Shown: positions 4,756 to 19,074 of the stretch, piece by piece
How positions within the stretch are numbered: position 1 is the first letter of the stretch
Layout of the letters: each line of letters begins with the position of its first letter
Assembly (NCBI GenBank): GCA_937860145.1
Contig: CALMBF010000155.1
Span: 123,719 to 147,718 of the forward strand
Direction: 5' to 3'
Length of the DNA stretch: 24,000 nucleotides
DNA from: an uncultured Geobacter sp.
GTDB lineage: Bacteria > Desulfobacterota > Desulfuromonadia > Geobacterales > DSM-12255
The notes under the pieces: model-generated
The model's input: only the letters and a program-made list of their open reading frames with translations
Databases searched by the model: none
What the model was told of the DNA's origin: nothing
Translations under genes and position numbers: made by a program

Positions 4756-4807
4756 CAAAAAAACCGGAGATCTCCTGTGCGCACGTCACGCAGGGACCTC
4801 CGGTTTT
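4756..4807 (-). terminator. Intrinsic terminator after metK
   Basis: On the minus strand: AACCGGAG..(28 nt)..CTCCGGTT followed by TTTTTTT (the A-run at 4756-4763 on the plus strand). Confidence 0.7.
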
Positions 4808-4874
4808 CCGGTTGGCATGATTTCTCGATAAATTGTGTCGATTACACGTACAGCTCTCTGCACATATGGTGACT

Positions 4875-6107: not shown

Positions 6108-6165
6108 AAAAAAAGGCCAAGCAGGGTAGTGCATCCCGACTTGGCCTCCAGTGTGTCTGGTGGAA
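6108..6165 (-). promoter_or_regulatory. metK 5' leader: motif copy A (CCAGacacaCTGG-A-GGCCAAG...CTTGGCC-U7), candidate riboswitch or attenuator with an intrinsic terminator
   Basis: Read on the minus strand: cacaacggttccaCCAGacacaCTGGAGGCCAAGtcGGGatgcactaCCCtgCTTGGCCttttttt, ending 52 nt upstream of the metK ATG. Confidence 0.6.
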
Positions 6166-6223
6166 CCGTTGTGAATGTTCGAAGTGTGTCCGATCAATAT
6201 TTTCTGTGACCGTAGCAATTTAA

Positions 6224-6255
6224 ATCTTGACTTGTCAAGATAAAAAATATATATC
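6224..6255 (+). promoter_or_regulatory. Sigma70-like promoter (TTGACT-N15/17-TATATA/TATATC) overlapping the 18-bp palindrome ATCTTGACttGTCAAGAT
   Basis: TTGACT at 6227-6232 and TATATA at 6248-6253. The palindrome at 6224-6241 places TTGAC on both strands between divergent metK and the tautomerase operon. Confidence 0.5.
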
Positions 6256-6286
6256 CTACAAAAAATGTAGTTTATAACTGTCGCTC

Positions 6287-6333
6287 GCTGACCAGAGAAC
6301 TGGAGGCCGGAAAATCTTTTTCCGGCCTTTTTT
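6287..6333 (+). promoter_or_regulatory. Leader motif copy B (GCTGA-CCAGagaaCTGG-A-GGCCGG...CCGGCC-T6) upstream of the tautomerase gene
   Basis: It lies downstream of the predicted promoter and 35 nt upstream of the GTG at 6368. No plus-strand gene upstream needs a terminator here. Confidence 0.6.
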
Positions 6334-10615: not shown

Positions 10616-10658
10616 ATCTATAAACACGATAGATAATATAGTTACAAGGAGGGGCGCA

Positions 10659-12857
10659 GTGCATCCAGTGTATCTTGACTACAATGCAACTACTCCGGTT
10701 GACCCCCTGGTGGTTGATGAGCTGCTCCCCTGGTTGCAGGAAGGGTTCGGCAATCCATCCAGTAATCACCCGTACGGCCAGCGTGCCAAACATGCAGTGG
10801 AGCAGGCTCGTTCGCGGGTGGCGTCACTGCTTGGCGCGCATCCGGCGGAGATTATATTTACCAGCGGTGGTACCGAGGCAAACAATCAGGCGCTGATCGG
10901 GGTTGCCCTGGCCAACTGCGAGCGGGGTCGGCATATCATCACGTCGTCCATTGAACACCCGGCAGTCCTGAATCCGCTCCACTGGCTGGAGGGGCAGGGG
11001 TTCAACATCACCTATCTCCCCGTGGACAGCTCCGGACGGGTAGATCCGGAGACGTTGCGCCAGGCCATCACCTGCGAGACAATTCTCGTCAGCGTGATGC
11101 ATGCCAACAACGAGGTGGGGACTATCCAGCCGCTGGCCGAGATCGGCGCCATCGCCCGGGAACACGGCATTCTGCTGCACACCGATGCCGCCCAGTCGGT
11201 GGGGAAGATCCCGACGAGGGTGGATGAACTGGGGGTGGACCTGCTGACCATTGCCGGCCACAAGTTTTATGCCCCCAAGGGGATCGGCGCCCTCTATGTG
11301 CGCACGGGGGTGAAGATTGATCCCTACCTGCATGGCGCCGGACACGAAGGGGGCCGTCGGGCGGGGACCGAAAACGTCCCCTATATCGCCGCACTGGGTA
11401 AGGCGGCAGAACTGGCGGGCCAGCGGTTGGCCAGCGAAGGGGAGCGCATTCGTGAGCTGCGGGACCGCTTCCATGCCCGGCTGAACGAACTGGTTGACGG
11501 GGTCCTGCTGAATGGCCACCCCACCGAGCGCCTCCCCAACACTCTCAACATCAGCTTCAGCGACGTGGTCGGGGCTGATCTGCTGTCCCGTATTCCGGAG
11601 ATGGCCGCTTCCACCGGTTCGGCCTGTCATGACGGCAGCGGCGAGCTGTCCGGCGTGCTCAAGGCCATGGGGGTGCCACGGGAGCAGGGTTTCGGCGCCA
11701 TCCGCTTCAGCCTCGGCCGGCTTACCACCGCCGAGGAGCTGGAACGGGCAGCAGAGCTTGTTGCGACCAGGGTCAGGGAAATTCGCGCCATCCGGGGTGG
11801 TGTTTCCCATAATCACGTTCAGACCGGGCTCTCCGCCCTGGCTTCCTGCGCCGGTTGAGCGGCCAAGATAAGTCCTCAGGACCTGGCTCAAGTTTTGAGT
11901 CAGCTACCAAGCATTACCGACCCGAATGTACTCATCGGCACCAAAACCGCCGATGATGCCGCCGTTTACCGTGTGAACGATGATCTGGCCATCGTGCAGA
12001 CGGTGGACTACTTTACTCCGGTGGTGGACGACCCCTATCTGTTCGGCCAGATTACCGCTGCCAACTCCCTGTCCGATATCTATGCCATGGGGGCTACGCC
12101 TCTCTTTGCTCTGAACATAGCCGGGTTTCCATCCGATACGCTTCCCTTGGATGTTCTGGCCAGGATTCTCCAGGGGGGTGCTGACAAGGCGGCGGAAGCA
12201 GGCATCAGCATCATCGGCGGCCATACCATCAAGGATGCGGAGCCGAAATACGGCATGGCGGTCACCGCGGTGATCCATCCCGACCAGGTGATCAGTAACG
12301 CCGGGGCCAAACCGGGTGACCGGCTGATCCTCACCAAGCCGCTGGGAATCGGGATTATTACGACTGCCATGAAAAGCGGCAAGGTTACAGAAAAGACCGT
12401 TGCCGAAGTTGTCGCTGTCATGGCGAGTCTGAACAGGAGTGCCGCAGAGGCGATGGTTGTGGTCGGAGCCCATGCCTGCACCGACGTGACCGGTTTCGGA
12501 TTCCTCGGCCATCTTTCCGAAATGGTCCGTGGAAGCGGCGTCGGCGCGGTGATCAGCGTGTCGAGGGTGCCGGTGCTGGAAGAGGCCTGGAGTCTGGTGC
12601 GTGAGGGGATTGCTCCGGGCGGCAGCCGACGCAACCTGGAATTTTTGCGCGACCGGCTCACGGTAGAAACGGGTGTCAGCGAAGAGGAGCTGCTTGTCCT
12701 GGCCGATGCCCAGACCTCTGGCGGGTTGCTGATAGCATTGCCGGCAGACGACGTTGACCGGTTAGAGACGGAACTTGCCGGACGGGGTGTGACAGATGTT
12801 GCCGAAATCGGCGAGATTGTGGCCGATCCCGACAGCCGGATCACCCTGAGACCCTAG
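10659..12857 (+). CDS. selD: NifS-like cysteine desulfurase/selenocysteine lyase fused to selenophosphate synthetase; in-frame UGA (Sec) at 11856-11858; 732 aa
   Basis: GTG after AAGGAGG. The N-terminal domain has the PLP Lys context GHKFYAPKG and the active-site motif GSAC. Reading through the TGA gives ...SCAG-U-AAKISPQDLAQVL..., matching the SelD G-x-G-C/U-x-x-K-I-S-P active site. The rest is SelD-like (DDAAVY, VDYFTP, TDVTGFG). Confidence 0.8.
11859..11899 (+). other. Candidate SECIS-like stem-loop immediately 3' of the UGA
   Basis: GCCAagataaGTCCtcaGGACcTGGC at 11862-11887, followed by CTCAAgttTTGAG at 11887-11899. Confidence 0.4.
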
Positions 12858-12868
12858 GGATATCAGAC

Positions 12869-13645
12869 ATGGCAACCGGCTTGCAACTGGGCACCCTGTT
12901 CATGCTCGGCATGTCCGGAGGGTTTTTGTCCGGACTCCTGGGCATTGGCGGCGGCATTGTCATGCTGCCGCTCCTCATATCGCTGCCACAGTTAACGGGT
13001 TTTTCCATCGGTCTCCGTCCGGCTGTCGGGATTACCATGCTCCAGAGCCTGAGTGGATCCCTGTCGGGCATGCTGATCCATCGCAGGCACGATGTCTTCG
13101 ACGTTCCCCTTGCCCTCACGGTAGGGGTGTGCGCCGCTGCCGGATCAATGGGGGGAGCTCTCTTTTCCAGCCTGGTGAGTGAGCGGTGCATGGCGATCCT
13201 TTTTGCCGTGATGGCGTTAACAAGCCTGCTGCTTCTGCTCTTACCCGAATCCGGGGAGTTGCCATCAACTGATAGCACATGCCCGAAGCGCTTTCCTGCC
13301 GCATCGCTGCTGGGGGGTGGTGTCGGTTTTTGTGCCGGGATCATCGGCCAGGGGGGCGCATTCATCATCCTTCCCCTCTTGATTCATCTGCTGAAGGTAC
13401 CGGTGCGGACGGCAATCGGTACGACCGTCGCAGTCTCGTTTTTATCCGCAGCTGCCGGATTCATCGGTAAATGGAGCACCGGACAGGTCCCCCTGCTCTG
13501 GGGAGTCGCCGTGGCATCCGGAGCGCTGCTGGGGGGGCAGCTGGGGGGTATGGTCAGCCACCGGTTATCGACAATCACCCTGCGTCGAATCCTGTTCCTG
13601 GTGGTTGCGGTCAGCATGCTGCGTATATTTGCCCACGTCCTTTAG
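12869..13645 (+). CDS. TauE/SafE (DUF81) family anion exporter-like membrane protein, 258 aa
   Basis: Gly-rich TM1 (GGFLSGLLGIGGGIVMLPLL) and an internal repeat (GIIGQGGAFIILPLL) are typical of the TauE family. Confidence 0.75.
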   Translation: MATGLQLGTLFMLGMSGGFLSGLLGIGGGIVMLPLLISLPQLTGFSIGLRPAVGITMLQSLSGSLSGMLIHRRHDVFDVPLALTVGVCAAAGSMGGALFSSLVSERCMAILFAVMALTSLLLLLLPESGELPSTDSTCPKRFPAASLLGGGVGFCAGIIGQGGAFIILPLLIHLLKVPVRTAIGTTVAVSFLSAAAGFIGKWSTGQVPLLWGVAVASGALLGGQLGGMVSHRLSTITLRRILFLVVAVSMLRIFAHVL

Positions 13646-13699
13646 AAACCTTGCGGATTGCTATTGTCAGCGTAACTGAGACGTTAGCGGAGGTACTAC

Positions 13700-14287
13700 A
13701 TGCTTCTGTGGCACATCTTCATTCTCTTTACCCGGGTATCCCTGTTCTCCTGGGGAGGCGGACCTGCCTCCCTGGCGCTGATGCAACGGGAAACCACCAC
13801 TGCCCTCTGGAAGCCACCTGGTAGTGCCTCAACGTCTCCCTGGGTAACACCCCTGGAATTTTCCGATGCCGTGGCGGTGGGGAATGCACTTCCAGGACCG
13901 ATTGCACCCCAGGTTTCCGCCTATATTGGATATAAGATGGCCGGAGTGCCGGGTGCCGTCGCTGCTGCGGCCGGGACGGTACTGCCGACGACGATACTGA
14001 TGCTGTTCATGGTGGCCTGTTTTTTTCGCATCAAGGAGAGTCTGCTGGTCCAGTCCATGCTCCGGGCCGTCCGCCCGGTGGTGGTGGGACTGCTGCTCTG
14101 GACCGCCTATGACATGGCGATAACGGTTTTCGGGGTCAAACGGCTCGGGCTTGTGCAGTCGTTCTCCCTGGGATGGGATAAGCTGCTCATTGTGGCAGTG
14201 TCGTTTGCGGTACTGACCCTGACGGAAATCAATCCGGCCCTGGTTGTTCTGGTAGCGGCCGTAGCGGGCGGCGTGGTGTACCGTTGA
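13700..14287 (+). CDS. Chromate-transporter (CHR) family half-size protein, 195 aa
   Basis: FTRVSLFSWGGGPASLALMQRE and ...GNALPGPIAPQV... resemble short-chain ChrA proteins. Only one half-size gene is present. Confidence 0.7.
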   Translation: MLLWHIFILFTRVSLFSWGGGPASLALMQRETTTALWKPPGSASTSPWVTPLEFSDAVAVGNALPGPIAPQVSAYIGYKMAGVPGAVAAAAGTVLPTTILMLFMVACFFRIKESLLVQSMLRAVRPVVVGLLLWTAYDMAITVFGVKRLGLVQSFSLGWDKLLIVAVSFAVLTLTEINPALVVLVAAVAGGVVYR

Positions 14288-14352
14288 GGAACGTCAGTCG
14301 ACAGATGCGCAGCCGGGACAAAAGAAAAGCTTGGTGAGCAGGAGGGAGTTCT

Positions 14353-15816
14353 ATGGGCAATCGTAACCTGTTACGTGATCCGATCTGGCGAGGCGATGAA
14401 CTGGGAAAGGCACTTCCCGATTCGCTCCATGCCGTCTCCGTGGCGCTGCCGCATTGGCAGGACGTGGTTGGTTATGAGGAGAAGCGGCCCGAGGTGGTCA
14501 ATCGATTGCAATGCGGCTACCCCCGCTTCGTCATTCACCGCCTGGTGCAGGATCTGGCGCGGTTTATCGCCGGTGATCGCCCCTGCCTGCCGTTCCCTTC
14601 GCAGCACACGGCGCAGCAGTGCGTGGCTTTCATTCATCGCCAGAGCGGCGTCGAAGCTCAGGTGGTCGAGCGGGACGGGCAGTATGGTGTTGCCACGACC
14701 GACAGCGGTTACGACAGCCTCAAGGCTTTCTGGCAGCATACCGGCCTGATCGTCTCCACCCGCCGGGCCCAGTCGATATTGAGCGGTATCTCGCGGGTAC
14801 AATCTGATGATCGGGAAGTGCGGGATTCTCTTCGGCGACAGCTGGCCGGGTTGTACGACTGTTCTCCCGATGACGTATTCCTGCAGCCAACCGGCATGGC
14901 GGCCATGTTTGCCGCCCTGCGGGCGGTCATGCGGCGTACACCGGGCAGGCCGACGGTGCAGATCGGCTTCCCTTATGTGGATACGCTCAAGCTGCAGGAG
15001 AAATTCGGCCACGGCGCAACCCTGCTCCATGACCTCAACCATTGTACTGAAAACCTGCGTGCCCTTCTGCAACAAGGGGCTCTAGCCGGATGCTTCAGTG
15101 AGATTCCCGGTAACCCCTTGCTCGGATCTGCCGATCTGCGCGAGATCACCCCGATCCTGCGGGAGCACGGCGTGCCGCTGGTGGCCGACGACGTTGTTGC
15201 CACACCCCTGAACGTGGACCTCGGTTCCCATGCCGACCTGATCGCCACCAGCCTGACCAAATACATTTTCGGCAGGGGGGACGTCATGGGTGGCGCCCTG
15301 ATCTGCAACCCCCGCTCTCCCTATCACATCGAGCTTAGGGCCATTGCAACATCGCTGCACGAGGAGCTTCTCTGGCTTGATGATGCCGTGGTGCTGGAAG
15401 AGCAGATCGGCAGCTTTCCGGAGCGGATGCGGGTTCACAACCGTAACGGCCTGATCATTGCCGAACGGCTTCGCTCCCATCCTGCAGTTGAACAGGTCTG
15501 GTTTCCGAAATGGTCGTTCGGCGACGCCTACGAGGCGGTGCGCCGACCCGATGGCGGGTGGGGTTCCCTGGTCACCTTTCTGCCAAAGAACGCCGAGACC
15601 GCGTCACCCCGTATCTATGACAATCTTGAAGTTTGCAAGGGCCCGAGTCTGGGAACCAGCTTTACCCTGGCCTGTCCCTTTACCCTGCTGGCCCATTACA
15701 CTGAACTGGAGTGGGCTGAGGCCTGCGGGGTGCCGCGGTATCTGATCCGGCTCTCCGTGGGGCTCGAAGATCCGGAAGAACTCTGGGGCCGGATTGTCCG
15801 GGCGCTGGAAGCATAA
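14353..15816 (+). CDS. Cys/Met-metabolism PLP-dependent enzyme (cystathionine gamma-synthase-like, long Str2-type form), 487 aa
   Basis: The PLP-lysine context SLTKYIFGRGDVMGG, plus an N-terminal extension of roughly 100 aa with HAVSVALPHWQDVVGYEE. AGGAGG RBS. Confidence 0.75.
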   Translation: MGNRNLLRDPIWRGDELGKALPDSLHAVSVALPHWQDVVGYEEKRPEVVNRLQCGYPRFVIHRLVQDLARFIAGDRPCLPFPSQHTAQQCVAFIHRQSGVEAQVVERDGQYGVATTDSGYDSLKAFWQHTGLIVSTRRAQSILSGISRVQSDDREVRDSLRRQLAGLYDCSPDDVFLQPTGMAAMFAALRAVMRRTPGRPTVQIGFPYVDTLKLQEKFGHGATLLHDLNHCTENLRALLQQGALAGCFSEIPGNPLLGSADLREITPILREHGVPLVADDVVATPLNVDLGSHADLIATSLTKYIFGRGDVMGGALICNPRSPYHIELRAIATSLHEELLWLDDAVVLEEQIGSFPERMRVHNRNGLIIAERLRSHPAVEQVWFPKWSFGDAYEAVRRPDGGWGSLVTFLPKNAETASPRIYDNLEVCKGPSLGTSFTLACPFTLLAHYTELEWAEACGVPRYLIRLSVGLEDPEELWGRIVRALEA

Positions 15817-15876: not shown

Positions 15877-15905
15877 TTGACACATACCTTTAATGGCAGT
15901 ATATA
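15877..15905 (+). promoter_or_regulatory. Strong sigma70-like promoter (TTGACA-N17-TATATA)
   Basis: TTGACA at 15877-15882 and TATATA at 15900-15905 in the AT-rich gap after the PLP-enzyme gene. Confidence 0.65.
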
Positions 15906-15955
15906 CGATATAAGTAATAGACATTATCGTTTATTTTGCCGAACAAAATATTTCA

Positions 15956-16000
15956 GCTGACCAGATAACTGGAGGCCAGGATTTTTCCTGGCCTTTTTTT
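15956..16000 (+). promoter_or_regulatory. Leader motif copy C (GCTGA-CCAGataaCTGG-A-GGCCAGG...CCTGGCC-T7)
   Basis: It lies about 45 nt downstream of the predicted transcription start and about 115 nt upstream of the Nfu start, in a leader-terminator arrangement. Confidence 0.65.
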
Positions 16001-16114
16001 GTTCATGACAGCTGCTGGAGACTGTAGAACTTAGTTCATGATTGAAGTTGTACATCAACAGGAGCTATACAACTTCAAGTGAATAAACGCATTGCCGATA
16101 GGGAGGATGAATAC

Positions 16115-16352: not shown

Positions 16353-17171
16353 ATGATATCCCTTGCGCTTGATAACAGTAAACTCGCCAAAACCTACGAC
16401 GAAATCAGCGATTCCCAGTACGAGTCCGGCAAGAAGCTGCTTGCCGAACTCAAAGTCAAACCGGGTGAGACCGTGCTCGACATCGGCTGCGGCACCGGTC
16501 GGCTCGGACTCTACCTGCTCGATATTATCGGTCCGACCGGCCGTTTCATCGGCATCGATCCGCTGCCGGAGCGTATCAGTATTGCCAATGACAATAATGT
16601 TCACCCTAACGCCGAATTCCGTACCGGTGTGGCTGAAGACCTCTCGTTTCTGGGGAACAACAGCGTCGACCTGGTCTACCTGAGCGCCGTGTTCCACTGG
16701 GTACCCGATAAGCAGAAGGCATTGCAGGAGATCAGCCGGGTGTTGAAGCCGGGTGGCAGGATCGGTTTGACCACCAACGCCAAGGAGTTGGTTAAGGCGA
16801 CCACCCTCCGTTCCGTGACCACGGAGGTGTTATCTCGGGTTCCCTATCGCGGCCAAGTGGATGCCGAGGCTTTTGCCCCGACCCGCCACGGGGTGACAGC
16901 CACCCAGCTGGTTGAGCTCTTTCTCGATGCGGGATTCAGGGTTGCGGACGTCCGTGTCCTGGCCATCGAGCGTTTGTACCATACCGGACGTGATATCGTC
17001 GACTTTGCCGAAGCAAGTACCTTTGGCAATTACCTGAACCACGTGCCGGCAGATTTGCGGGATAAAGCCCGTTTTGACCTGGAGAGCGCCTTTGAGATAC
17101 TGCGTGGTGACGAGGGGATTCCGTTTCAGCTATATACACTTTTTGCCATTGCCGAAAAGATCGGCGCCTGA
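16353..17171 (+). CDS. Class I SAM-dependent methyltransferase, paralog 2, 272 aa
   Basis: Motif I is VLDIGCGTGRLG. Collinear with 8195..9016 (shared blocks LSAVFHW, VLKPGGRIGLTT, RHGVTATQLV, STFGNYL.HVP). Confidence 0.85.
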   Translation: MISLALDNSKLAKTYDEISDSQYESGKKLLAELKVKPGETVLDIGCGTGRLGLYLLDIIGPTGRFIGIDPLPERISIANDNNVHPNAEFRTGVAEDLSFLGNNSVDLVYLSAVFHWVPDKQKALQEISRVLKPGGRIGLTTNAKELVKATTLRSVTTEVLSRVPYRGQVDAEAFAPTRHGVTATQLVELFLDAGFRVADVRVLAIERLYHTGRDIVDFAEASTFGNYLNHVPADLRDKARFDLESAFEILRGDEGIPFQLYTLFAIAEKIGA

Positions 17172-17248
17172 CAGGGATGGATACATCTGGACTGCCTGGC
17201 TGATCTGATGATGGTCTGATGCGATAAAGTAATGGGTAATATTTTTGT

Positions 17249-17314
17249 GCTGACCGGCAAAGCCGGAGGTGCCTGATGCGCATGTGCGCATGGCCCTCCG
17301 GCTTTTCTTTTTTT
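17249..17314 (+). promoter_or_regulatory. Motif copy D (GCTGA-CCGGCaaaGCCGG-AGG) merged with a strong intrinsic terminator, between the methyltransferase and alpha1
   Basis: AAGCCGGAGG (17260-17269) pairs with CCTCCGGCTT (17295-17304), with an inner ATGCGCAtgTGCGCAT, followed by TTCTTTTTTT. The alpha1 RBS follows 20 nt later. Confidence 0.65.
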
Positions 17315-17345
17315 GCAACCGACAATAGAGGAGAGAGGTGTACGT

Positions 17346-18875
17346 ATGGGATTGAAAGAAGACCGGGTTGTCCCCGGCAGGGAAGACCGGGTAGCGGCCT
17401 GCATGGCCTATGGCGGCAGCGCCTGCAGTATCGGCGGCGAAAGCAAGGCATGTCTGAAGAACAGCGAGCGGGGTTTTTCCCAGGCCGGCATCTGCCAGCT
17501 ACTGCCGACCTTGGGGATGCTCCTGACCCTGCCGGATATTGCCGTGATCATCCATGGCGCCATCGGCTGCGGTTCTGCCGGGTTCGGTATGAATGTCAGT
17601 ATTCGCCTGCATCATCTGCTCCGCGGCAATCCCAATGCCAAGGACAGCCTATGGTTCAGTACCAACCTGGATGAGGCGGATGTGGTGCATGGCGGCGAAC
17701 AGCGGCTGGAGGAGACTATCCTCACTGTAAACGAACGCTACAAACCGAAATCCATCGTCGTGGTGCAGACCTGCACCCCGTCCATCATCGGCGATGATCT
17801 CGTGGGGGTGGTGGAAAAAGTCCGGCCGCTGGTGGAGGCCAACATACTCTATGCCCACTGCGAAGGGTTCAAGACCAAGGTCTGGGCCACCGGCTATGAC
17901 GTGGCTTTTCATGCCATGATTCACGGTTACATAGAAAAGGACAAGGAGGGGCCGCCGCCACGAAAAGCCCCCTGGCAACCGGGACAGCGGCCGACGGTCA
18001 ATGTCATCAACCTGGCCTCCGTCGGCAAGCCGGACGAGGAGGAGATCGAACGGCTCCTCAATGCCATCGGCATCGATGTGACCATCGGCCCCAACTTCGC
18101 CGACCGGGAAAAGGTGCGGCAGCTGACTCAGGCCGACCTGACGGTCAGCATCTGCCCGACCCATGACGACTACCTGGTCGATTACCTGCACACCGAGTAC
18201 GGCATCCCCTTCGTCCTGAAGGACATGCCGATCGGCCTGGAGAATACCCGCAACTGGTTGCTGGATATTGCGGGCAAATTCGGTCTGGAAAAGGAGGCGC
18301 TGGCCCTGATAGAGGCCGAGGAGGCCAGGGCGCGCACAGCGGTGGAGCGCTTCCTTCCCGTGCTGAAGGGGATCCGGGTATTTCTCTCCGCCGGTGAGTT
18401 CCGGGCGCTGGTTACCGGCGGGCTGTTCCAGGAGCTGGGGATGGAGATCGTCGGGGTACGCTCCTACCACCATGACGAGTTCGGCACCGATTTCTACGGC
18501 CGGCTGGTAAACGGTCAGCAGGGGAAGGACTTCCCGGTGGATATCGCCAATTTCCAGCCCTTCGAACTGGTCAATCTGTTGCAGCAGGTCAAGCCGGACC
18601 TCTTTGCCGGCCATATCTGGGACAACGCCTGGGCCGCCCGCCTCGGCTATCCCACCATCACCATCTTCCGCATCTTCGACTACTACGTCGGCTACCGCGG
18701 TTTCTATGAAGTGGCAAAAAAGGCGGCCCGCATCCTGCGCAACCATTCGTTCAATGCCAATCTGAGCAGAAACGTTACCGATGCCTACCGCCCGGAGTGG
18801 TATGAGCAGAACGCTTTCAAATACATCAAGTCAGGGCTGCCTGAGGGTCTGCAATCGGATACAGCTGCAGTGTAA
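17346..18875 (+). CDS. Nitrogenase-like alpha-type subunit (NifD/NifE-like), paralog alpha1, 509 aa
   Basis: ATG at 17346 after GGAGAGAGG. Motifs IHGAIGCGS, QTCTPSIIGDD, AHCEGFK and SICPTHDDY..EYGIP. Collinear with alpha3. Confidence 0.9.
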   Translation: MGLKEDRVVPGREDRVAACMAYGGSACSIGGESKACLKNSERGFSQAGICQLLPTLGMLLTLPDIAVIIHGAIGCGSAGFGMNVSIRLHHLLRGNPNAKDSLWFSTNLDEADVVHGGEQRLEETILTVNERYKPKSIVVVQTCTPSIIGDDLVGVVEKVRPLVEANILYAHCEGFKTKVWATGYDVAFHAMIHGYIEKDKEGPPPRKAPWQPGQRPTVNVINLASVGKPDEEEIERLLNAIGIDVTIGPNFADREKVRQLTQADLTVSICPTHDDYLVDYLHTEYGIPFVLKDMPIGLENTRNWLLDIAGKFGLEKEALALIEAEEARARTAVERFLPVLKGIRVFLSAGEFRALVTGGLFQELGMEIVGVRSYHHDEFGTDFYGRLVNGQQGKDFPVDIANFQPFELVNLLQQVKPDLFAGHIWDNAWAARLGYPTITIFRIFDYYVGYRGFYEVAKKAARILRNHSFNANLSRNVTDAYRPEWYEQNAFKYIKSGLPEGLQSDTAAV

Positions 18876-18909
18876 ATATACCTGATGACTATCAATTCTT
18901 CCGTAAATT

Positions 18910-19013
18910 CCTTCTCCCTCAGGGAGAAGGTGGCCTCAGGCCGGATGAGGGTGGTAACAGTGCCATTATGCACCATTTCCCCCTCACCCTAGCCCTCTCC
19001 CTCAGGGAGAGGG
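18910..19013. repeat. REP-like element: inverted pair of CCYTCTCCC-tca-GGGAGARGG hairpins in the alpha1-beta1 gap
   Basis: Hairpins at 18910-18930 and 18993-19013, plus GGCCtcaGGCC at 18932-18942. The two halves are approximately reverse-complementary. Confidence 0.65.
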
Positions 19014-19074
19014 GACTCTGTATAAGCTGTAGTGGCAGGTACGATTAAATTAATTACCAAGGAGTAACATCCAT

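What the first reader, a model, noticed from the sequence alone, without database searches (positions are those of the whole stretch)
17221..17314. Copy D: second checkpoint inside the operon, between the methyltransferase and alpha1
Between the methyltransferase stop (17171) and the alpha1 RBS lies GCTGA-CCGGCaaaGCCGG-AGG. Here the 3' arm of the small hairpin is also the 5' arm of a long, near-perfect terminator (17260-17304 plus TTCTTTTTTT), so the two structures are mutually exclusive. Two further blocks match copy C: CGATAaAGTAATgG (17222-17235) against CGATAtAAGTAATaG (15906-15920), and AATATTT just before GCTGA. Similarity that extends beyond the core supports a genuine RNA family with an upstream element. 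It also implies two-tier control: Nfu and the methyltransferase first, then the alpha/beta genes.
Basis: seen in the sequence. Interest (0 to 1): 0.7.

Follow-up and report, generated by a model that had tools for sequence, protein, structure and literature searches.

The report
Conserved hairpin–terminator switch before sulfur genes
Copy D is a real member of a widespread, apparently undescribed RNA on/off element: a tiny conserved hairpin competes with a transcription terminator in front of sulfur, methionine and nitrogenase-like genes, and in other genomes it usually sits right behind the gene for an uncharacterised small protein (YezD/DUF2292) that may be its partner.

Summary
At 17247-17315 a 26-nt hairpin (-13.4 kcal/mol) shares its 3' half with a strong intrinsic terminator (-35.4 kcal/mol plus a U-tract).

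The hairpin has a 5-bp outer helix P1, a GA/A internal loop, an inner helix P2 (CCGG/CCGG) and an A-rich loop. It is one of exactly five copies in the window. Chance predicts about 0.05.

The same element occurs in Firmicutes, Spirochaetes, Desulfuromonadales, Nitrospirota and other phyla. Compensatory changes in both helices support the structure. No Rfam 15 family matches it, and my literature searches found no description.

Downstream genes include ssuA, cysK, metY, metK, metN, sulfate-binding proteins, an APS reductase and nitrogenase-like genes.

The element is tightly and directionally linked to a small upstream gene, YezD (Pfam DUF2292):
- 58 of 80 yezD genes are followed by it.
- 53 of 117 copies are preceded by yezD.

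In copy C that block resembles a DNA operator placed right after the promoter. In D it looks like a decayed relic of one.

Best reading (0.45): a factor-dependent antiterminator, with YezD as the likely factor, laid out like HutP or GlcT. The main rival is a small ON riboswitch. The "second checkpoint" reading is plausible.

The parts
17247..17251 (+). Copy D, P1 5' strand (GUGCU)
   Evidence: Pairs with 17268-17272 in the MFE fold. The equivalent helix covaries in relatives.
17252..17253 (+). Copy D, 5' side of the internal loop (GA). The A is invariant in the family.
   Evidence: Alignments A2 and A4. The extra copies show G>C,A at the first position and A always at the second.
17254..17266 (+). 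Copy D, P2 hairpin: CCGG(C)-AAA-(G)CCGG with an A-rich loop
   Evidence: P2 pairs 2 and 3 covary in the family: GC/AU 41:35 and CG/UA/UG 72:3:3.
17267..17267 (+). Copy D, single bulged A on the 3' side (invariant)
   Evidence: Alignments A2 and A4
17268..17272 (+). Copy D, P1 3' strand (GGUGC), which is also part of the terminator 5' arm
   Evidence: In 101 of 117 relatives the two Gs are paired within the terminator fold.
17259..17305 (+). Copy D, intrinsic terminator stem-loop
   Evidence: -35.4 kcal/mol, z = -6.3. The stem CCGGAGG...CCUCCGG is conserved in the orthologous leaders L002, L003 and L004.
17306..17315 (+). Copy D, U-tract (UUCUUUUUUU)
17222..17235 (+). Probably a degenerate relic of promoter/operator DNA, not an RNA element.
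15956..16001 (+). Copy C (5' leader of nfu and the methyltransferase gene): hairpin 15956-15976, then terminator and U-tract
   Evidence: R1 33.2 bits; terminator listed; folds
15877..15920 (+). Promoter of copy C (TTGACA-17-TATATA), followed by the operator-like block CGATATAAGTAATAG (15906-15920)
   Evidence: Read; palindrome family
6287..6333 (+). Copy B (leader of the operon that starts with the tautomerase gene): hairpin 6287-6307, then terminator
   Evidence: R1 31.6 bits; terminator
6229..6270 (+). Promoter of copy B (TTGACT-17-TATATC) and the palindrome CTACAAAAAATGTAG (6256-6270)
6108..6171 (-). Copy A (metK leader). Variant with CA in place of GA and an ACACA loop; includes terminator and U-tract.
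   Evidence: R1 21.3 bits; sequence
4757..4822 (-). Copy E, between the metK stop codon (4875) and the DUF1638 start (4723). Like D, its terminator includes the P2 3' arm.
   Evidence: R1 30.1 bits; hairpin -7.8 and terminator -29.3 kcal/mol

Best explanation
Copy D is a conditional transcription attenuator.

**How it works.** As the RNA is made, a small hairpin forms first. It has P1 (5 bp, closed by a U-G pair), a GA/A internal loop, P2 (CCGG/CCGG) and an A-rich loop. Its 3' half is also the 5' arm of a much stronger intrinsic terminator. Left alone, the terminator should displace the weak P1 and stop transcription before alpha1. Read-through needs a factor that recognises the conserved hairpin and holds P1 closed.

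**The likely factor.** I take the factor to be the small protein YezD (DUF2292), acting in trans and probably carrying the metabolic signal itself, a sulfur or methionine status ligand. In other genomes its gene lies immediately upstream of this hairpin, as hutP, glcT and pyrR lie upstream of their RNA targets.

**Position in this window.** D gates the four nitrogenase-like genes downstream of copy C. It descends from what is the promoter-proximal leader of the alpha1 operon in related genomes.

**Shown:** the family, its structure, the hairpin/terminator competition, the gene associations and the yezD linkage.

**Inferred:** that a factor is needed, that the factor is YezD, that binding gives read-through rather than termination, and what the signal is.
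For: **Structure and competition.**
- D's hairpin and terminator overlap, at -13.4 versus -35.4 kcal/mol.
- In 117 relatives the means are -10.1 versus -20.2 kcal/mol. In 101 of 117 the P1 3' strand is paired within the terminator fold.

**Family.**
- There are 5 copies in the window against about 0.05 expected, and 11 more in three orthologous loci.
- The two bases 5' of the pattern were not searched for, yet they are C-U in 101 and 110 of 127 copies.

**Covariation.**
- Alignment A2: 90.7% of cells paired against 82.1% shuffled; covariation score 0.384 against 0.224; 0 of 500 shuffles reach either value; slid controls give 50% or less.
- Alignment A4, mostly copies found next to yezD genes and therefore not chosen by the exact pattern: 84.2% against 80.4%, and 0.248 against 0.159; 0 of 500.
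- A-C never occurs at the R/Y pair, although the search pattern allowed it.

**Regulon**: SsuA 8, CysK 7, NifB-like 7, JAB/desampylase 6, homocysteine synthase 5, MetN 5, nitrogenase-like 4, NifH-like 3, MetK 3 and sulfate-binding protein 3, plus an APS reductase and a glycyl-radical enzyme related to sulfonate enzymes.

**YezD link.**
- 53 of 117 copies have a DUF2292 ORF ending 160 nt or less upstream, mostly within 6-45 nt. Only 1 of 117 has one downstream.
- Starting from the protein, 58 of 80 yezD genes are followed by a model hit within 200 nt, mostly 17-52 nt.
- The pair keeps together in front of different cargo. In Geobacterales the cargo is sbp, nifH-like genes or metK. In Firmicutes it is B12-related or surface proteins, behind a cobalamin riboswitch.

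**Orthologous leaders.** The alpha1 operons in L002, L003 and L004 start with the same element.
Against: - No YezD gene lies in the window or in about 80 kb of orthologous loci that hold 16 copies. Any action there must be in trans. The contig of L004 does carry a yezD (L197).
- YezD has no recognisable RNA-binding domain. The AlphaFold2 model shows only a helix plus a beta-hairpin (pLDDT 75). Foldseek against the PDB and a PDB sequence search gave nothing.
- 22 of 80 yezD genes lack a clear copy, and more than half of the copies lack an adjacent yezD.
- Adjacency could mean only that both belong to one regulon.
- Broad cross-phylum conservation of a small RNA next to genes of one pathway is also what a metabolite riboswitch looks like.
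- Polarity is not established. A factor that binds P2 and keeps P1 open would promote termination instead.
- No expression or binding data exist.
Confidence: 0.45

Rival explanations
1. A metabolite-sensing ON riboswitch with a tiny aptamer embedded in the terminator. A small molecule that builds up under sulfur, cysteine or methionine limitation binds the GA/A internal loop, locks P1 and prevents termination. Candidates are O-acetylserine, N-acetylserine and O-acetylhomoserine. YezD would be only a co-regulated first gene.
For: - Spread across phyla, with invariant unpaired bases and a conserved U-G pair beside the loop.
- A coherent sulfur/methionine regulon.
- Several copies are promoter-proximal 5' leaders with no yezD nearby: window copies A, B and C.
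- The HMP-PP riboswitch is a precedent for a very small terminator-embedded ON aptamer (PMC6478431).
- Tandem placement behind cobalamin riboswitches resembles known two-input riboswitch arrangements.
Against: - Riboswitches are not known to sit preferentially behind one particular small gene. Here 72% of yezD genes are followed by the element, with strict polarity and regardless of the downstream cargo.
- A 3-nt internal loop in a 9-bp hairpin is a very small pocket.
- The sequence-conserved AAAA loop has no obvious RNA partner and looks more like a protein contact.
- The B12-related cargo in Firmicutes does not fit a purely sulfur-related ligand.
Confidence: 0.27
2. The same RNA with opposite polarity. 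Under sulfur-replete conditions a factor (YezD or another) binds P2 and the flanking conserved bases, keeps P1 open and so promotes termination, in the manner of TRAP or PyrR. Without the factor, the hairpin that forms first allows partial read-through.
For: - P1 and the base of the terminator compete for the same 3-5 nt with similar local stability, so the balance could be tipped either way.
- Repression by an end product is the usual logic for biosynthetic regulons.
Against: - P1 is short (often 3 bp in Geobacterales) and the terminators are about 10 kcal/mol stronger. Termination should therefore already be the default without help.
- P1 covaries, which means the paired state is under selection.
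Confidence: 0.13
3. An unregulated element: a partial terminator or processing/stability hairpin. It would merely set the ratio between upstream genes (yezD, nfu and the methyltransferase, metK) and downstream genes, or would be a repeated intergenic element with no sensing role.
For: - It often lies between genes of one operon (D, E and the yezD cases).
- It always carries a terminator.
- There are several copies per genome.
Against: - A plain terminator needs no invariant hairpin upstream.
- The P1 5' strand mimics the end of the terminator 3' arm and covaries with it.
- The core is conserved across phyla.
- It is restricted to one functional class of genes.
- It also occurs in true 5' leaders (B, C).
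Confidence: 0.08
4. Leader-ORF (translation-coupled) attenuation. Ribosomes finishing the yezD ORF control whether P1 forms.
For: In 7 of 53 cases the UGA of the conserved CUGA is the yezD stop codon. Many other stop codons lie within 6-30 nt of it.
Against: - The spacing is variable, from about -1 up to roughly 160-200 nt.
- YezD is a conserved folded domain with no Cys/Met codon bias.
- Window copies B and C have no upstream ORF, and D and E follow unrelated genes.
Confidence: 0.05

Closest known systems
HMP-PP riboswitch (thiS motif; Atilho et al. 2019, PMC6478431)
   Same: - It is a very small conserved element largely embedded in a classic intrinsic terminator.
- The alternative structure opens the terminator base next to the U-tract.
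- It is an ON switch and is often a second gate behind another riboswitch.
   Different: - The sequence and structure consensus differ. No Rfam match was found in the window or in 36 related loci.
- The regulon is thiamin versus sulfur/methionine.
- Here the conserved part is a separate hairpin 5' of the terminator.
- No ligand has been shown here, and here there is a linked protein gene.
HutP/hut, GlcT/ptsG (RAT) and PyrR/pyr attenuation systems of Bacillus (from established knowledge)
   Same: - The regulator gene lies directly upstream of a terminator whose formation is controlled by protein binding to an overlapping RNA hairpin.
- PyrR operons have several attenuators in series within one operon, like C then D, and A then E.
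   Different: - YezD (about 60 aa, helix plus beta-hairpin) has no similarity to HutP, to CAT/PRD antiterminators or to PyrR.
- The RNA consensus is different.
- Binding is untested.
S-box (SAM-I) and T-box regulons of Firmicutes (from established knowledge)
   Same: They control much the same genes by transcription attenuation: metK, metY, metN, cysK, sulfate assimilation and methionine synthesis genes.
   Different: - No SAM-class or T-box covariance model matches.
- The element is about 5 times smaller.
- The conserved structure is the antiterminator, which implies the opposite ligand logic (ON) or a protein partner.
Phage lambda N / boxB
   Same: A short hairpin with an A-rich 4-5 nt loop is used in antitermination and recognised by a small protein helix (resemblance recalled from memory).
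   Different: - boxB works within a processive antitermination complex, not by competing with one terminator.
- There is no internal loop and no sequence similarity was tested.
- This is a lead only.

Membership tests
Hairpin-terminator family defined here (covariance model R1) | P1 closed by a Y-G pair, with R-C-U / G-G-Y strands | tested here: met
   D has GUGCU/GGUGC. The family pattern is shown.
Hairpin-terminator family defined here (covariance model R1) | Internal loop 5'-NA-3' / 5'-A-3', P2 CCRG/CYGG, and an A-rich 4-5 nt loop | tested here: met
   D has GA / A, CCGG/CCGG and CAAAG. R1 scores it 30.0 bits, E about 1e-6.
Hairpin-terminator family defined here (covariance model R1) | P1 3' strand is part of the 5' arm of an intrinsic terminator followed by a U-tract | tested here: met
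   for D. This holds in 101 of 117 relatives. A T-run is present in 78 of 85 copies of alignment A4.
Hairpin-terminator family defined here (covariance model R1) | YezD/DUF2292 gene immediately upstream (frequent, not universal) | tested here: not met
   None in the window. D follows a methyltransferase gene. The feature is met in 45-72% of relatives.
Any Rfam 15 family, including SAM-I/II/III/IV/V/VI, SAM/SAH, SAH, T-box, HMP-PP (thiS), sul1, NMT1 and PyrR | Score at or above the family gathering threshold, or any relevant hit at E<=10 | tested here: not met
   - No gathering-level hit in the window.
- Only terminator-driven sRNA noise at E<=10.
- Nothing at the motif in 36 related loci.
Intrinsic (Rho-independent) terminator | Stable GC-rich stem-loop directly followed by a U-tract | tested here: met
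   17259-17305, -35.4 kcal/mol, then UUCUUUUUUU
Metabolite-binding riboswitch (general) | Conserved structured RNA with an expression platform upstream of genes of one pathway | tested here: met
Metabolite-binding riboswitch (general) | Direct, selective binding of a small molecule without protein | not testable with these tools
   Needs in-line probing, ITC or in vitro transcription.
Protein-dependent antitermination (HutP, BglG/GlcT-RAT, PyrR type) | Regulator gene adjacent to an RNA target that overlaps a terminator | tested here: inconclusive
   There is strong, polar adjacency of yezD and the hairpin in relatives. No yezD lies in this window, and binding is untested.
Protein-dependent antitermination (HutP, BglG/GlcT-RAT, PyrR type) | Regulator homologous to a known RNA-binding antiterminator family | tested here: not met
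   Only PF10055 DUF2292 matches. There is no PDB sequence or fold match.
Leader-peptide attenuation | Short regulatory ORF, rich in the sensed amino acid, overlapping the alternative structures | tested here: not met
   No such ORF lies before B, C or D. The yezD stop codon sits at a variable distance from the motif.

The most novel reading that the evidence does not exclude
YezD/DUF2292, a widespread small protein with no known function, founds a new class of RNA-binding transcription (anti)terminators. Together with this 21-nt hairpin it forms a portable protein-RNA cassette that gates sulfur acquisition, cysteine, methionine and SAM synthesis, nitrogenase-like organosulfur reductases and some B12-related operons across many bacterial phyla. 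The alternative reading is nearly as novel: the hairpin is the smallest known ON riboswitch and the first to sense a sulfur-starvation metabolite.
Probability: 0.4. Interest if true: 0.88.

Novelty: new variant of a known kind. Interest (0 to 1): 0.8.

Why it matters
- **Sulfur regulation.** Apart from SAM/SAH riboswitches and T-boxes, no RNA-level regulator of sulfur assimilation or cysteine synthesis is known. Outside a few model organisms, the signals that switch on sulfonate and sulfate uptake, cysK, metY and the recently discovered nitrogenase-like organosulfur reductases are obscure.
- **A testable handle.** This element gives a sequence-defined, experimentally testable handle on that regulon in Geobacterales, Clostridia, Negativicutes, spirochaetes and others.
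- **A function for DUF2292.** It gives the first concrete functional hypothesis for the DUF2292/YezD family.
- **Annotation.** It allows sulfur-responsive operons to be annotated in metagenomes.
- **This locus.** The nitrogenase-like genes here would be under at least two, perhaps three, stacked controls: a promoter operator, copy C and copy D.

Tried and rejected
- **Known RNA families.** Rfam at gathering threshold on the window and on 36 related loci, and at E<=10 on both leader regions, gave nothing relevant. Membership in the SAM, SAH, T-box, thiS, sul1, NMT1 and PyrR families is therefore rejected.
- **Upstream RNA element shared by C and D.** The similarity is weak, out of register and absent elsewhere. 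It is better explained as promoter/operator DNA.
- **Internal promoter before D.** No consensus site lies between 17171 and 17247. The only promoter-like hit nearby (17074-17101) is within chance expectation: 5 found against 6.5 expected. Orthologous leaders have a TTGACA box that D lacks.
- **Leader peptide or small ORF after GGAGG.** In D an ATG follows GGAGG (ORF 17276-17674), but the other copies have none.
- **Pseudoknot between the A-rich loop and U-rich flanks.** No consistent U-run lies upstream in the family.
- **YezD structure.** There is no PDB sequence hit. The AlphaFold2 model shows only a helix plus a hairpin, and Foldseek gives nothing better than E = 2, so the structure is uninformative.
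- **Literature.** Exact-sequence searches, and searches on sulfur, riboswitch, DUF2292, YezD and gene-name motifs, found no description.
- **Ligand identity.** It cannot be inferred computationally. O-acetylserine and the other candidates are guesses from regulon logic.

Full report
**1. Observation**

The sequence is as described:
- The methyltransferase ORF ends at 17171 and alpha1 starts at 17346.
- Between them lie GUGCU-GA-CCGGC-AAA-GCCGG-A-GGUGC (17247-17272), a long stem-loop (17259-17305) and UUCUUUUUUU (17306-17315).

ViennaRNA folds:
- The 30-nt piece folds as ..(((((..(((((...))))).))))).. at -13.4 kcal/mol.
- The terminator folds at -35.4 kcal/mol (z = -6.3).
- The two share 17259-17272, so only one can exist at a time.

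**2. D is one of five copies**

- A script and then a covariance model found exactly five copies in the window:

| Copy | Position | Strand | Location |
|---|---|---|---|
| A | 6108-6171 | - | metK leader |
| B | 6287-6333 | + | leader of the operon that starts with the tautomerase gene |
| C | 15956-16001 | + | nfu / methyltransferase leader |
| D | 17247-17315 | + | between the methyltransferase gene and alpha1 |
| E | 4757-4822 | - | between metK and DUF1638 |

- The core ACCRG-N4/5-CYGGAGG occurs 5 times against 0.05 expected.
- The next-best model hit in the window scores 8.7 bits, against 21-33 bits for the five copies.

**3. Source and genes**

- The window comes from a JGI metagenome contig.
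- The closest named relative of alpha1 is Geotalea sp. SG265, at 81% identity.
- Minus strand: two nitrogenase-like genes, DUF1638 and metK.
- Plus strand, B operon: tautomerase, beta-lactamase-family protein, methyltransferase, EamA, nitroreductase, class-V aminotransferase, AIRS/SelD-like, TauE, chromate-transporter-like and a Cys/Met PLP enzyme.
- Then come Nfu, a methyltransferase and four nitrogenase-like genes.

**4. The family and its structure**

Distribution:
- Three orthologous loci (L002-L004) hold 11 further copies.
- Folding with the terminator 3' arm removed gave the same two-helix hairpin in nearly all of them.
- The hits come from Clostridia, Lachnospiraceae, Negativicutes, Peptococcaceae, Thermoactinomyces, Paenibacillus, Treponema, Geobacter/Desulfuromonadales, Nitrospirota, Omnitrophota, Pirellulaceae, Methylomonas and others.

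Evidence that these are one real family:
- The two bases before the pattern were not searched for, yet they are C (101 of 127) and U (110 of 127). They pair with the GG after the bulged A.
- The third P1 pair is GC 64, AU 38, GU 13.
- The R/Y pair of P2 is GC or AU, once GU and never A-C, although the pattern allowed any combination.
- Pair counts on A2: 90.7% paired against 82.1% shuffled; covariation 0.384 against 0.224; 0 of 500 shuffles; slid registers 50% or less.
- Pair counts on A4, mostly copies found next to yezD genes: 84.2% against 80.4%, 0.248 against 0.159; 0 of 500. These include CUGG/CCAG and U-A variants.
- Extra copies found by the model show CUAG/CUAG as well.

Invariant features are the A 5' of P2, the single bulged A, the first and last P2 pairs, and a nearly always A-rich 4-5 nt loop.

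**5. Relation to the terminator**

- In 101 of 117 copies the two Gs of the P1 3' strand are paired in the terminator fold.
- Mean energies are -20.2 kcal/mol for the terminator and -10.1 for the hairpin.
- In 23 of 117 copies the P2 3' arm is also inside the terminator, as in D and E.
- Of 85 copies in A4, 61 have T5 and 17 more have T4 within 80 nt.
- The conserved hairpin is therefore an antiterminator, and it is too weak to win unaided.

**6. Not a known RNA family**

- Rfam 15 gave no hit at the motif in the window or in 36 related loci, and only terminator-driven noise at E<=10.
- Literature searches by sequence and by topic found no description.
- The nearest architecture is the HMP-PP riboswitch, a terminator-embedded ON switch.

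**7. Regulon**

The first downstream ORFs of 110 copies match the following:

| Family | Copies |
|---|---|
| SsuA-family binding proteins | 8 |
| DUF4430 | 8 |
| CysK | 7 |
| NifB-like | 7 |
| JAB/desampylase | 6 |
| Homocysteine synthase | 5 |
| MetN | 5 |
| Radical SAM | 5 |
| Nitrogenase-like | 4 |
| NifH-like | 3 |
| MetK | 3 |
| Sulfate-binding proteins | 3 |

Single cases include an APS reductase and a glycyl-radical enzyme related to sulfonate enzymes. This is a sulfur-acquisition and cysteine/methionine/SAM regulon, with a B12-related fringe in Firmicutes.

**8. The YezD link**

- In 8 of 36 Rfam-scanned loci a cobalamin riboswitch lies 90-325 nt upstream of the motif.
- In 7 of those 8 the gap holds a small ORF with the conserved sequence ...YG.V.I.IQDGK.VQI.K.EK.RL. 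This is Pfam DUF2292, the YezD family.
- A local HMM found 60 such ORFs in the 119 pattern loci.
- 53 of 117 motif copies have one ending 160 nt or less upstream, mostly within 6-45 nt. In 7 cases the motif's UGA is the ORF's stop codon.
- Only one copy has a yezD downstream.
- I also started from the protein, which is unbiased with respect to the RNA. In a metagenome scan, 58 of 80 yezD genes are followed by a model hit within 200 nt. Several of the rest carry degenerate versions.
- The cargo behind yezD plus motif varies: sulfate-binding protein, nifH-like genes and metK in Geobacterales; CbiS-like and unknown membrane or surface proteins in Firmicutes.
- YezD is uncharacterised in the searchable literature.
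- It has no PDB relative. It models as one helix plus a beta-hairpin with no informative fold match.
- The window and L001-L004 contain no yezD. The contig of L004 has one about 15 kb away (L197). Another contig of the window's own metagenome has yezD followed by a variant motif (L151).

**9. Copy D in its own lineage**

- The alpha1 operons of L002, L003 and L004 begin with the same D-type element: GACCGG...CCGGAGGUG.C ... CCUCCGG-U-tract.
- In those loci it is preceded by a TTGACA promoter and an operator-like sequence.
- In the window the aligned stretch has lost the TTGACA box, and no consensus promoter lies between 17171 and 17247.
- D therefore looks like a former primary leader that now acts as an internal gate behind copy C.
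- The A, metK, E arrangement on the other strand is the same design.

**10.

- The C/D block similarity is marginal and out of register.
- A 15-bp palindrome, CTATA-N5-TATAG, recurs right after -10 boxes of rrf2, cysK and sbp genes in Geobacterales loci. It also occurs at window 6256-6270 and 10618-10632.
- C's block sits in that position (15906-15920, directly after TATATA 15900-15905). On the other strand it reads CTATT-ACTTA-TATCG.
- D's block is a degenerate version with a 4-nt spacer.
- I read these blocks as DNA operator material for a candidate Rrf2-type sulfur regulator, not as part of the RNA.

**11. Mechanism**

Shown:
- A conserved, covarying antiterminator hairpin overlaps an intrinsic terminator.
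- It is associated with sulfur and methionine genes.
- It has a polar linkage to yezD.

Inferred:
- Termination is the default.
- A factor that stabilises P1 gives read-through.
- The factor is YezD, acting in trans on copies such as A-E.
- The physiological signal is sulfur or methionine limitation.

My probabilities:

| Hypothesis | Probability |
|---|---|
| YezD-dependent antitermination | 0.45 |
| Protein-independent ON riboswitch | 0.27 |
| Factor-promoted termination | 0.13 |
| Unregulated element | 0.08 |
| Translation-coupled attenuation | 0.05 |

**12. Verdict**

- The "upstream RNA element" is not supported.
- The finding opens onto a widespread, apparently undescribed cis-regulatory RNA and a candidate function for DUF2292.
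- No expression or binding data were available, so function remains inferred.

Noticed in passing
window 4757-4822 (- strand): A fifth copy (E) of the hairpin-terminator element lies between the metK stop codon and the DUF1638 start. It mirrors D as an internal gate before nitrogenase-like genes.
   Followed up: yes
window 6256-6270, 10618-10632, 15906-15920; L004 3632; L002 9530; many of L124-L203: A 15-bp DNA palindrome, CTATA-N5-TATAG, lies directly after -10 boxes of rrf2, cysK, sbp and other sulfur genes in Geobacterales loci. It is a candidate operator of an Rrf2 (CymR/IscR-like) regulator, which would add a DNA-level layer on top of the RNA element.
   Followed up: partly
window 6229-6240: The perfect palindrome TTGACTTGTCAA is shared by the divergent promoter regions of metK (copy A) and of the copy-B operon. 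Each half reads as a -35 box for one strand.
   Followed up: no
L010, L012, L024, L025, L055, L058, L060, L065: In Firmicutes a cobalamin riboswitch lies 90-325 nt upstream of the motif, usually with a yezD ORF in between. Downstream lie CbiS-like, DUF4430 or large surface proteins. L010 has two yezD paralogues flanking one copy.
   Followed up: partly
window 18876-19074: The 200-nt gap between alpha1 and the next nitrogenase-like gene holds two near-identical GC-rich palindromes (CCTTCTCCC-TCA-GGGAGAAGG and CCCTCTCCC-TCA-GGGAGAGGG). They look like REP-type intergenic repeats. The gap is 64 nt in L002 and 36 nt in L004.
   Followed up: no
window 10659-15816: The copy-B operon carries a class-V aminotransferase (cysteine desulfurase/selenocysteine lyase type), an AIRS/SelD-like gene, TauE, a chromate-transporter-like gene and a Cys/Met PLP enzyme. 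This hints at selenium or unusual sulfur chemistry next to the nitrogenase-like genes.
   Followed up: no
YezD alignment A3 (Geobacterales clade): These YezD proteins end in an almost invariant ...H.DGSGI tail after the DUF2292 core. The proteins contain essentially no Cys or Met apart from the initiator.
   Followed up: no
L002 9385-9418 and 9479-9511 (- strand): Two copies lie in tandem before one gene. The second is weaker (17.6 bits, G-A in place of G-G) and lacks a clear U-tract. It may be a decaying or cooperative tandem.
   Followed up: no
window 17276-17674: An ATG lies 6 nt after D's GGAGG and opens a 132-codon ORF, out of frame with alpha1. It is probably spurious, because the other copies have no such ATG.
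   Followed up: partly
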